In this document: positions 50,585 through 51,427 of the stretch, in pieces | How the letters are laid out: each line of letters begins with the position of its first letter | Position numbering within the stretch: position 1 is the first letter of the stretch | Source: a virus | Length of the DNA: 64,000 nucleotides | Reading direction: 5' to 3' (one strand) | IMG/VR virus record: IMGVR_UViG_3300036832_001166 | Coordinates: 32,001 to 96,000 of that record | Made by a program: the position numbers and the translations under genes | The notes under the pieces: model-generated | Told to the model about the DNA's origin: nothing | Seen by the model: the letters and a program-made list of their open reading frames with translations, nothing else | The model's database searches: none

Positions 50585-51301
50585 ATGATGAATGGGCCTG
50601 TCCGACGGGTGATCCCCGTCGGATACCAGGTGTACAGGCTGCGGTTGGATGGACAGTCGCCGCTTCTGATGAACTCGTCCGAGTACGACCGGGCGAGCGA
50701 CACATACCGAGCGTTCAAGGCGCTCGGCAGCAAGCGCGGCAAGACGATCGAGGACGAGCTACGTCTCGGCGAGCTGGAGTTCCACCTCGGGCTGCACTAC
50801 GACGAGAAGGTCGGAGTGTTCATCCCCGGGATCAACCTCAAGGAGCTGATCCGCTCCGCCGCCACGAAGTACCGCAAGGGCGAGGAGATCCGGCGCAGCC
50901 TGATCGTGCCGGACTACCGGATCCCGCTGATCTACGACGGCCCGCGCACGCCCGCGGAGCTGTACGCGCAGGGCTATTACGACACGCGCATGGTCGCGAA
51001 CGCTGGCGCCGGTTCCGGCCGCGTGCCGAGGACACGACCCGCGTTTGAGGAGTGGGCGATCGAGACCGACATCGCGTTCGATCCGGAGGATCTCGACGAC
51101 GACCTCGTCCAGAACGCCATCGACCGCAGCACGAAGTACGGCTTCGGGGATGGGCGCTCGATCGGCTTCGGCGCGTTTGAGCCGACGTTGACATTTCTCA
51201 GGCGTCAGTCGAAGGTCAGCAAGGCGGATGCGGTCAAGGCTCCGAACGGCCGCGCGAAGACCAACCTGGCGGCGGCGACGTCGCGGATCCTGAGTTCGTA
51301 G
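50585..51301 (+). CDS. Solitary RAMP/Cas7-like RNA-binding protein (Vipr-type effector candidate)
   Basis: RAMP hallmarks: YRLRLDGQSPLLMN (beta1), FIPGINLKELIRSAA (cf. IPGSSLKG.LRS), RTRPAFEEW, Gly-rich loop YGFGDGRSIGFGAF; no other cas genes in the window. Confidence 0.85.
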   Translation: MMNGPVRRVIPVGYQVYRLRLDGQSPLLMNSSEYDRASDTYRAFKALGSKRGKTIEDELRLGELEFHLGLHYDEKVGVFIPGINLKELIRSAATKYRKGEEIRRSLIVPDYRIPLIYDGPRTPAELYAQGYYDTRMVANAGAGSGRVPRTRPAFEEWAIETDIAFDPEDLDDDLVQNAIDRSTKYGFGDGRSIGFGAFEPTLTFLRRQSKVSKADAVKAPNGRAKTNLAAATSRILSS

Positions 51302-51427
51302 GCCTTGGCGCGGTAGGGCGCGGCCCGGCGGGTTCGGCACGGACGGCTCGGTTGGCCAGGCCCGGACCGGCAGGGCTCGGCCGGGCGAGGCTCGGCACGT
51401 CCGGCTAGGCGGGGCATGGCACGGCAC
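51301..51427 (+). ncRNA. GGY-NN guide array 1 (26 units)
   Basis: Starts at the RAMP stop codon; ends GGCAC GGCAC GGG before a hairpin. Confidence 0.85.

What the first reader, a model, noticed from the sequence alone, without database searches (positions are those of the whole stretch)
51301..51427. Array 1 decodes to an HK97-family prohead protease motif absent from this window
Seen: NN 5'-3' = TT GC AG GC CC CG TC AC AC TC TT CA CC CC AG TC CG GA TC AC CC TA GG AT AC AC. The reverse complement read as codon positions 1-2 gives V V [IM] P Y G V [ED] S R [DE] L G G [WC] [KN] [ED] V V [ED] R G A L A [KN], i.e. about VIPYGVESRDLGGWKEVVERGAL; an alternative parse of 4-nt units gives ...EPGAL. 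Established: HK97-type prohead proteases carry S.DLGG(F/W).E.I.(P/R)GAF near the N-terminus. This window has a Mu-like head and no such gene. Inference: the guide targets the head operon of an unrelated competitor phage or prophage.
Basis: partly seen in the sequence, partly recalled or inferred. Interest (0 to 1): 0.9.

Follow-up and report, generated by a model that had tools for sequence, protein, structure and literature searches.

The report
Phage VIPR guide against rival protease
This stretch is a guide RNA of the recently published phage VIPR system (a lone Cas7-like protein plus five-letter-repeat RNAs), and its variable letters spell, codon by codon, the most conserved motif of the head-maturation protease of unrelated phages, so it is a well-supported new example of a known kind rather than a new mechanism.

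Summary
Window 51305-51430 is 26 NN-GG(Y) units. Twenty-two units are 5 nt and four are 4 nt. They start 3 nt after the stop codon of a 238-aa gene (50585-51301) and end in a strong hairpin.

Reverse-complemented and read as codon positions 1-2, the array gives VV|IPYGVESRDLGGWKEVVE(P/R)GALA(K/N). This is a real Peptidase_S78 motif:
- Proteins matched at 75-88% identity, E about 1e-6 against 5.8 billion sequences; six of eight carry PF04586.
- One metagenomic protein matches 23 of 24 residues.
- 21 IMG/VR contigs match at 80% or more of the NN letters (best 44/48).
- Shuffled unit orders never exceed 34/48, and other spacings never exceed 28/48.

The 125-kb phage has no S78 gene. It has a weak Mu-like gpT hit.

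The system is already published (three 2026 bioRxiv preprints) as VIPR: Vipr protein plus GGY/NN vrRNAs that bind dsDNA while skipping every third base. The upstream protein is a sequence homologue of the tested SUSP1 Vipr (BLASTP 8e-21) and has a Cas7 fold.

Other windows of this scan have already reported the same system. Local features worth noting: 24 contiguous matching units, units lacking the Y, and no vap gene.

The parts
50585..51301 (+). vipr gene: 238-aa Cas7-like RAMP protein, homologue of Escherichia phage SUSP1 Vipr
   Evidence: AF2 model pLDDT 86.9. Foldseek top hits are Csm3, Cmr4 and type VII Cas7, E 1.8e-6; VIA-align Z 10. tblastn to phiSUSP1 E 5e-13; BLASTP 8e-21 with G-loop GDGR aligned to SUSP1 GDWR. 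233 homologues at E<=0.001, none with a Pfam domain or a name other than hypothetical.
51305..51420 (+). vrRNA 1 guide tract: 24 NN-GG(Y) units whose NN letters match 24 consecutive codons (positions 1-2) of S78 prohead proteases, IPYGVESRDLGGWKEVVEPGALA(K/N)
51421..51430 (+). Two constant 3' units (AC-GGC AC-GGG), shared with array 2 (51670-51679). Targets encode G then V/L/R/I here, so the units are not needed for the match, although unit 2 (GT) pairs with the Val codon in some loci.
   Evidence: the same ending GGCACGGCACGGG occurs in both arrays.
51431..51475 (+). 3' tail of vrRNA 1: strong hairpin at 51435-51475
   Evidence: RNA fold -36.6 kcal/mol, z -5.5, 0 of 200 shuffles as stable. 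The repeat tract itself is no more structured than shuffles (z -0.45).
51478..51679 (+). vrRNA array 2 (about 42 units). Its twelve 3'-proximal guide units match the start of rusA in related phages, on the template strand.
   Evidence: Exact 12-codon pattern hits L149 and L150. These contigs have RusA 75% and 90% identical to the window's, beginning M/V-IQFTVIGKPVTK.
51679..51710 (+). Tail hairpin / terminator-like site of array 2
48291..48366 (+). Separate (orphan) vrRNA array of 15 units with hairpin 48366-48399; decodes to HDLFGSSAYQWGA of the primase-helicase
50501..50536 (+). Short GGY-NN tract in the 5' leader of vipr
   Evidence: also present before the L001 homologue.

Best explanation
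Array 1 is a VIPR guide RNA (vrRNA). It lies 3 nt past the stop codon of the phage's vipr gene, on the same strand.

By analogy with the SUSP1 system, one Vipr protomer binds each pentamer. It sequesters GG(Y) and displays the NN dinucleotide. The filament then pairs with double-stranded DNA in a two-paired, one-skipped register.

Here the 24 displayed dinucleotides match positions 1-2 of 24 consecutive codons. These codons encode the most conserved block (IPYGVESRDLGGW.E..EPGALA) near the N-terminus of Peptidase_S78 prohead proteases that are fused to an HK97-type capsid protein. The gene sits directly after the portal gene in unrelated phages or prophage-like elements. The carrier phage has no such gene.

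The most likely effect is transcriptional silencing of a rival element's head operon, robust to synonymous wobble changes.

Shown here: the array, its decoding, the natural near-matches, the absence of a self target, and the homology and fold of the protein.

Taken from the papers: filament assembly, dsDNA binding, the 1-nt skip rule, and repression.

Inferred: that this RNA is expressed, is loaded, and silences these particular elements.
For: Array and parse.

Decoded peptide:
- It finds PF04586 proteins at 75-88% identity, E 1.6e-6 to 2.9e-4 in 5.8e9 sequences. P0008 matches 23/24.
- tblastn against 50,697 phage records gave 19 hits. Of the 13 with annotation, 11 are head-maturation or prohead protease, one a capsid protein and one hypothetical.

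Nucleotide matches:
- 21 of 73 IMG/VR loci reach 80% or more NN match, maximum 44/48.
- Periods 2, 4 and 5 reach at most 28. 200 shuffled orders reach at most 34.
- The guide covers the longest invariant run of the protease alignment, P33-W44.
- Among 28 targets, pairwise identity is 0.81 at codon positions 1-2 and 0.60 at position 3.

Target context: targets lie in portal -> S78-capsid fusion genes.

No self target.

Internal control for the code: the orphan array matches 13 codons exactly in five related helicase genes. In the phage's own genome it scores 13, against a shuffle maximum of 6.

Protein:
- Cas7 fold.
- Homology to SUSP1 Vipr. Four of five residues whose mutation impaired silencing are conserved by alignment: D177->D189, R138->R151, K33 and R39.

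Gene-array linkage: 52 of the 69 related loci show arrays within 1.5 kb downstream of the gene; six of the others have under 50 nt of downstream sequence.

Published mechanism.
Against: - No perfect target was found. Unit 17 (GT) is mismatched in all 28 IMG/VR targets, which have Ile ATC. Unit 14 (AA) matches in only 14% of them.
- Exact 10-codon and 12-codon patterns gave nothing in IMG/VR, and the 12-codon pattern gave nothing in GTDB genomes.
- The protease loci used for the 80% count were fetched with motifs derived from the decoded peptide, so that count is partly circular.
- Host overlap between carrier and targets is not known. The only hint is shared metagenome ids between relatives of the carrier and some targets.
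- No vap accessory gene was found.
- The aromatic G-loop residue (SUSP1 W178) is Gly in this protein, although it is Tyr in the family consensus.
- Expression and processing were not observed.
Confidence: 0.85

Rival explanations
1. The target is not an independent competitor phage. It is a capsid-encoding satellite or small integrative element that parasitises this 125-kb phage, as shown for SUSP1 and its satellite.
For: The VIPR papers report that 18 of 20 SUSP1-clade guides converge on a satellite (abstract). In the best-matching target contig, L017, a tyrosine integrase lies 2.2 kb after the capsid gene with only three small ORFs between them. That layout is compact for a tailed phage.
Against: Only one of 30 target loci shows an integrase within the 3 kb held. 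The contigs are short fragments, so tail genes may simply lie outside them. The carrier's head is Mu-like, so the target's structural genes share no homology with it, unlike the SUSP1 case.
Confidence: 0.2
2. The guide acts on the protease mRNA (antisense RNA targeting) rather than on DNA.
For: Array 1 and the orphan array are both antisense to the coding strand of their targets. The structural paper reports that the filament can also pair with ssRNA.
Against: The 3' guide of array 2 in the same locus pairs with the template strand of rusA, so it cannot pair with the mRNA. The papers find targets on both strands, and they find that only DNA completes the triplex and the filament.
Confidence: 0.08
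3. The protease-like decoding is a coincidence of a G+C-rich low-complexity spacer that has no informational content.
For: Pfam gave no hit for the 26-aa peptide. The single PHROG hit was only E 0.015. Decoded peptides of most other arrays were not recognisable in the local data.
Against: There is a 23/24-residue match to a natural protein, and E about 1e-6 in 5.8e9 sequences. Shuffle and spacing controls support the real order and the 3-nt period. The same code gives exact 12-codon and 13-codon matches for two other arrays of this locus.
Confidence: 0.01
4. The array regulates the phage's own genes, or acts as a decoy that diverts another element's Vipr.
For: Solo vrRNAs that redirect or attack other VIPR systems are described. 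A short GGY-NN tract lies in vipr's own leader.
Against: Array 1 has no site in the 125-kb genome above shuffle level, at either the nucleotide or the amino-acid level. It is physically linked to its own vipr gene.
Confidence: 0.05

Closest known systems
VIPR system of Escherichia phage SUSP1 (type II; Vipr + vap1 + four vrRNAs). bioRxiv 10.64898/2026.04.26.720920, 10.64898/2026.04.26.720927, 10.64898/2026.10.15.759431
   Same: The protein is homologous: 29% identity over 190 aa, BLASTP 8e-21. The G-loop G-x-G-D-x-R-x-x-F-G-x-F and thumb R-P-x-F are shared. The guides are GG(Y)-NN pentamers followed by a structured 3' tail, and they flank the gene. Targets follow the 1-nt-skip rule with the skipped base at the wobble position, and they lie in other mobile elements' genes.
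   Different: - No vap1 homologue in the genome and no conserved neighbouring gene in 70 loci.
- The protein is 238 aa against 195 aa.
- GGC predominates here, while GGT predominates in SUSP1.
- Array 1 has 24 contiguous target-matching units, against the 9-16 repeats reported.
- 4 of 26 units lack the Y.
- The tail is a plain hairpin, not the SUSP1 pseudoknot.
- The array starts 3 nt after the vipr stop codon.
- The VIPR type (I-VII) could not be assigned, because the papers' type tables are not held.
Staggered vrRNA arrays of other VIPR types (Fig. S18 legend of 10.64898/2026.04.26.720920)
   Same: Long uninterrupted pentamer tracts occur here and in relatives: 26 and 42 units in this window, and 131 units in L001/L080. 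These could be cut into adjacent vrRNAs.
   Different: Processing sites are unknown here. All 24 units of array 1 read one contiguous 72-bp target, so it may instead be one long guide, or two guides tiling one site.
Class 1 CRISPR Cas7 backbone (Csm3 / Cmr4 / type VII Cas7) with crRNA
   Same: It has the same RAMP fold: Foldseek E 1.8e-6, VIA Z about 10. Like Cas7, it is taken to polymerise on a guide with a periodic break in pairing.
   Different: There is no CRISPR repeat-spacer array and no other cas genes. The period is 5 nt on the guide for 3 nt on the target (2 paired, 1 skipped), not 6 and 6. No sequence-level match to Cas families was found: the best is TIGR01903 at E 0.16, and there are no Pfam or PADLOC hits.

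Membership tests
VIPR (Vipr + vrRNA) | A Vipr protein: a minimal single-RRM RAMP with G-loop and thumb, homologous to the characterised Vipr | tested here: met
   tblastn to phiSUSP1 E 5e-13; reciprocal tblastn 2.6e-17; BLASTP 8e-21. Cas7-type fold.
VIPR (Vipr + vrRNA) | vrRNA of tandem GGY/NN pentamers, with constant GGY and hypervariable NN, next to vipr | tested here: met
   There are 26 units from 51305. Of the 69 related loci, 52 show arrays within 1.5 kb downstream of the gene, with unrelated NN content; six of the others have under 50 nt of downstream sequence.
VIPR (Vipr + vrRNA) | A structured, conserved 3' tail after the repeat tract | tested here: inconclusive
   Each of the three arrays ends in a strong hairpin (z -3.0 to -5.9). 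Arrays 1 and 2 share GGCACGGCACGGG. However, the tails are not alike in sequence and no pseudoknot was tested.
VIPR (Vipr + vrRNA) | Targets obey the 1-nt-skip rule, with the skip at the codon wobble position | tested here: met
   Period 3 gives 44/48, against 28 or fewer for periods 2, 4 and 5. Exact 13-codon and 12-codon matches exist for the two other arrays.
VIPR (Vipr + vrRNA) | No self-target at 80% or more NN match in the source contig | tested here: met
   Array 1: best 30/52 in the genome, at shuffle level. Orphan array: 22/30 (73%) overall, and 21/26 nt (81%) over its 13 matching units, on its own helicase. Array 2: 8/12 dinucleotides on its own rusA.
VIPR (Vipr + vrRNA) | An accessory vap gene beside vipr (typical, and type-defining) | tested here: not met
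   No vap1 homologue in the genome (E > 1). No gene cluster other than vipr recurs in more than 8 of 70 loci. The papers call vap 'typical', not universal. Many of the contigs are short.
VIPR (Vipr + vrRNA) | Vipr-vrRNA ribonucleoprotein that binds dsDNA and represses transcription | not testable with these tools
CRISPR-Cas (type III/VII Cas7) | CRISPR repeat-spacer array and further cas genes (Cas10/Cas5/Cas6 and others) | tested here: not met
   No PADLOC, Pfam or significant NCBIfam cas hit in the seven neighbouring proteins tested. There are no CRISPR-type repeats and no Rfam match.
Peptidase_S78 (the target, not the feature itself) | The decoded motif belongs to PF04586 proteins | tested here: met
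   Six of eight best proteins carry PF04586. The other two are portal-annotated products in which the motif follows the portal part. L017 and L014 targets score PF04586 at 2.5e-13 and 2.2e-14, plus PF05065.

The most novel reading that the evidence does not exclude
Array 1 works as a single 24-26-protomer filament with a 72-bp footprint, about twice the length of the characterised 12-unit SUSP1 guide. It tolerates pentamers that have lost the Y (4 of 26 units) without losing the codon register. It belongs to a vap-less VIPR clade, and in that clade several guides sit beside the carrier's own diverged, probably resistant, allele of the gene they target in sister phages. That would extend the known limits of the code and show how carriers avoid self-silencing.
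Probability: 0.3. Interest if true: 0.5.

Novelty: new member of a known kind. Interest (0 to 1): 0.35.

Why it matters
It is an independent, natural confirmation of the VIPR gapped code in a lineage far from the E. coli and Pseudomonas systems that were tested: an uncultured 125-kb, 69% G+C phage. It assigns a concrete natural target class, the invariant N-terminal block of S78 protease-capsid fusions. That fits the published idea that skipping the wobble base defeats synonymous escape. Among 28 target contigs, codon positions 1-2 are 81% identical and position 3 only 60%.

The locus also offers test material for open points of the system:
- how long a filament can be;
- whether Y-less units are tolerated;
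- whether a vap partner is dispensable;
- how a carrier protects its own homologous genes.

Tried and rejected
- Pfam on the decoded peptides found nothing relevant. PHROGs gave only phrog_2263 at E 0.015.
- Exact gapped patterns for array 1 gave no hits: 12 codons in IMG/VR and in GTDB genomes, and 10 codons in IMG/VR. A 12-codon pattern from the 5' part of array 2 gave no hit in GTDB genomes.
- PF04586 is absent from the five records holding L001-L005: the sister VIPR phage and four of the helicase-target phages.
- The 26-aa query was too short for the search for homologous proteins, so it was re-sent padded with X.
- Arrays 1 and 2 have no own-genome site above shuffles at periods 2-5, in either orientation. 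Array 2 has no 20/24 or better site in about 1 Mb of fetched loci.
- Decoding the 131-unit L001 array and 90 other arrays against the fetched loci gave only the helicase and protease matches, plus one near-match to the L001 portal.
- My first local-chain array caller ran through coding sequence in this G+C-rich DNA and was replaced.
- A TRAP-like or CsrA-like protein sponge, G-quadruplex DNA, and origin or primase-site readings were considered early. They were dropped once the NN letters proved informative.
- Rfam and tRNA scans were empty. No sigma-70-like promoter was found in 50300-51800.

Full report
**What is there**

Window 51305-51430 (+ strand) is a run of 26 units of the form NN-GG(Y).
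- Twenty-two units are 5 nt long: mostly NN-GGC, once each GGT, GGA and GGG.
- Four units are 4 nt long: ACGT, TCGG, ACGG, GGGT.
- At CCGGCGGGT two parses are possible, giving R-G or P-G in the decoding.
- The tract starts 3 nt after the stop codon (51299-51301) of an ORF whose likely start is the ATG at 50585.
- It ends with two units, AC-GGC AC-GGG, that also end the next array.
- A hairpin follows at 51435-51475 (-36.6 kcal/mol, z -5.5). The repeat tract itself folds no better than shuffles (z -0.45).

A second array (51478-51679) follows, with its own terminator-like hairpin. A third, separate array lies at 48291-48366. A short tract lies in the gene's leader at 50501-50536. Rfam and tRNA scans are empty.

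**Is the decoding real?**

Reverse-complemented and read as codon positions 1-2, the array gives VV | IPYGVESRDLGGWKEVVE(P/R)GALA(K/N).

Pfam did not see the 26-mer. PHROGs gave one borderline hit to a 'major head protein' family (E 0.015). Three stronger tests followed.

(i) tblastn against 50,697 phage genomes gave 19 weak hits. Of the 13 with annotation, 11 were head-maturation or prohead protease, one a capsid protein and one hypothetical.

(ii) A search of 5.8 billion proteins gave eight hits.
- Identity was 75-88% over the decoded residues, with E 1.6e-6 to 2.9e-4.
- Six hits carry PF04586 (Peptidase_S78), and three of those also carry PF05065. The other two are portal-annotated products in which the motif follows the portal part.
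- P0008 reads LIPYGVESRDLGGWKEVVEPRALAN, 23 of 24 decoded residues. P0006 reads 22 of 24.

(iii) An alignment of six of these proteins fetched 73 IMG/VR loci.
- At the nucleotide level, 21 of them match the 24-unit guide at 80% or more of the NN letters. That is the threshold used in the VIPR paper. The best is 44/48.
- Spacings of 2, 4 or 5 nt give at most 28/48.
- 200 shuffles of the unit order give at most 34/48, and none reaches 80%.
- Caveat: these loci were fetched with motifs derived from the decoded peptide, so the count is partly circular. The protein-database E-values and the shuffle and spacing controls are not.

**An internal control for the code**

The separate array at 48291-48366 decodes to (A)(K/N)HDLFGSSAYQWGA. 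The phage's own primase-helicase (46104-47996, AAA_25) contains AHDLFGSSAYQWGA at 47538-47579.
- A six-frame scan of the genome scores 13, against a shuffle maximum of 6.
- The corresponding 13-codon gapped pattern (26 specified bases) has five exact hits in IMG/VR. All are in frame in homologous helicases.
- The own gene differs only at Leu (TTG, not CTN) and two Ser codons (AGC and AGT, not TCN).

The twelve 3'-proximal guide units of array 2 match the first codons of rusA exactly in two related large contigs, on the template strand. Those contigs have RusA 75% and 90% identical to the window's, beginning IQFTVIGKPVTK. The window's own rusA, immediately downstream (IEFVVLGRPVTK), matches only 8 of 12. 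The two-read, one-skipped reading is therefore established in this locus independently of array 1.

**The target and its absence from the carrier**

The whole 125,432-bp genome (IMG/VR record with direct terminal repeats) has no PF04586 and no PF05065 match. It has a Mu-like gpT match, which is weak. Array 1 has no site in the genome above shuffle level.

In the target contigs the motif lies about 80-160 bp into a gene that fuses an S78 protease to an HK97-type capsid protein. A portal gene lies directly upstream in 29 of 30 loci.

The guide covers the longest invariant run of the protease alignment, P33-W44. Among 28 target contigs, pairwise identity is 0.81 at codon positions 1-2 and 0.60 at position 3.

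No perfect target was found.
- Unit 17 (GT, Val) faces Ile ATC in all 28 IMG/VR targets. Unit 14 (AA) matches in 14% of them.
- Exact 10-codon and 12-codon patterns gave nothing in IMG/VR, and the 12-codon pattern gave nothing in GTDB genomes.

**The protein**

The 238-aa product has no Pfam or PADLOC hit, and only a non-significant NCBIfam hit to Csm4. It has at least 233 homologues, none with a name other than hypothetical.
- An AlphaFold model from 35 sequences has pLDDT 86.9. It matches Csm3, Cmr4 and type VII Cas7 chains (Foldseek E 1.8e-6; VIA-align Z about 10).
- tblastn finds Escherichia phage phiSUSP1 at E 5e-13, along with Gordonia phage Trine, Mycobacterium phage LittleE, Pseudomonas phage LESphi2 and others.
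- The SUSP1 hit is the 195-aa gene flanked by GGT-NN arrays and followed by a 146-aa gene. This is the locus described in the papers.
- BLASTP of the two proteins gives 8e-21. By that alignment, SUSP1 D177, R138, K33 and R39 are conserved here; mutation of each impaired silencing. K82 aligns to Thr beside a Lys. W178 aligns to Gly here, and to Tyr in the family consensus.
- Of the 69 related loci fetched from viral and metagenome contigs, 52 show arrays within 1.5 kb downstream of the gene; six of the others have under 50 nt of downstream sequence. This includes homologues at 30% identity and DNA of 50% G+C. The NN content is unrelated between loci.

**Comparison with what is known**

A literature search found three 2026 bioRxiv preprints on VIPR systems.
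- They report a Vipr RAMP protein plus vrRNAs of alternating GGY/NN.
- They show a 1-nt-skip rule bioinformatically, in vitro and in vivo. The skipped base falls at the wobble position, there is no PAM, and targets lie on both strands.
- Natural targets are in competing phages and satellites, and the effect is programmable transcriptional repression.
- Cryo-EM shows one protomer per repeat, GGY sequestered, NN displayed, and an R-loop triplex.

The present locus meets these defining features, apart from the accessory gene. No vap1 homologue exists in the genome, and no neighbouring gene is conserved across 70 loci.

Further differences from the characterised type II system:
- 24 contiguous target-matching units, against 9-16 repeats;
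- four Y-less units that keep the codon register (target matches run through them);
- plain hairpin tails;
- GGC rather than GGT.

The VIPR type could not be assigned, because the papers' tables are not held. Other windows of this scan have already been reported as VIPR loci.

**Mechanism, and what is inferred**

Most likely the array is transcribed with or just after vipr. The RNA is then coated by Vipr and binds the 72-bp site in the rival element's protease-capsid gene. That blocks transcription of the head operon.

RNA-only targeting is unlikely, because a guide in the same locus pairs with the template strand of rusA. A satellite rather than a full phage as the target remains open. L017 has an integrase 2.2 kb after the capsid gene, but only one of 30 loci shows this within the sequence held.

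Expression, loading and silencing were not tested here.

**Verdict**

The mechanism is already published, so this is a new member of a known kind, with some local features worth testing.

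Noticed in passing
window 48291-48399 and 47538-47579: The separate 15-unit array decodes to HDLFGSSAYQWGA. That motif is present in the phage's own primase-helicase 750 nt upstream, but encoded there with Leu TTG and Ser AGC/AGT. Five related IMG/VR phages (L002-L006) use CTN and TCN and match the guide exactly over 13 codons. This looks like a guide sitting beside the carrier's own resistant allele.
   Followed up: yes
window 51620-51679 and 51744-51785; L149:8114-8148, L150:10224-10258: The twelve 3'-proximal guide units of array 2 match the first codons of rusA (IQFTVIGKPVTK) exactly, on the template strand, in two related contigs of 107 and 122 kb. 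The window's own rusA just downstream (IEFVVLGRPVTK) matches 8/12, through amino-acid changes. In L150, a close relative (helicase 77% and RusA 90% identical), no vipr match was found in the 11-kb locus held, including the stretch between the helicase gene and rusA.
   Followed up: yes
L001:5490-5530 and L001:5573-5640: In the sister phage, the 3' end of a 131-unit array matches the N-terminus (WLQYLEPKLDA) of the portal-like gene (by my reading of its N-terminus; no family search was run) that starts 40 nt after the array's hairpin. The match is 9 of 11 dinucleotides. One of the two mismatches is again Leu TTG against CT.
   Followed up: partly
window 51478-51619 (5' two thirds of array 2): About 28 further units have no target in the genome or in the fetched loci, and one tested 12-codon pattern found nothing in GTDB genomes. 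What they read is unknown.
   Followed up: partly
window 50444-50490 and 50501-50536: A perfect inverted repeat (CTGTAGCACACGA ... TCGTGTGCTACAG) lies between vipr and the divergent leftward genes. About seven GGY-NN units lie in the vipr leader. L001 has a similar leader tract. Possible autoregulation, or a further guide.
   Followed up: no
window 48000-48290: About 290 nt without a convincing ORF lie between the helicase stop codon and the separate array. No Rfam match.
   Followed up: no
window 51296-51302, 51470-51476, 51729-51735; L001:5558-5564; L149 and L150 just before rusA: A CGTAG(A/G)C motif (in L001, TTAGACT), as in CGTAGACTCAC, recurs just before each array and before the downstream gene. 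It is kept before rusA in relatives that lack the arrays. Possibly a promoter -10 or a processing signal.
   Followed up: no
L017:6791-7561: The best-matching target contig has a tyrosine integrase 2.2 kb downstream of the protease-capsid gene, with only three small ORFs between them. That is compact enough to suggest a satellite or a very small prophage.
   Followed up: partly
L144:355-754, L145:578-860, L137, L133, L134: Distant Vipr homologues (28-35% identity) carry several short arrays of 9-13 units, separated by stretches ranging from about 30 nt to over 600 nt and lying either upstream or downstream of the gene. This is closer to the published SUSP1 layout than the long arrays of this clade.
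   Followed up: no
phage records MH271318.1 (Gordonia phage Trine gp41), JF937101.1 (Mycobacterium phage LittleE gp34), OQ594955.1 (Pseudomonas phage LESphi2): Cultured phages encode 'hypothetical proteins' 35-38% identical to this Vipr (E 1e-28 to 1e-25). They are closer than SUSP1 and could serve as tractable models for this clade.
   Followed up: no
IMG/VR contig names of L001, L010, L011, L014, L016, L017, L033, L036, L150: Carriers or their close relatives and protease-target contigs share metagenome ids. 3300047160 holds the L001 carrier and six target contigs. 3300036846 holds L150 and target L010. This is a weak hint that they meet in the same habitat.
   Followed up: no
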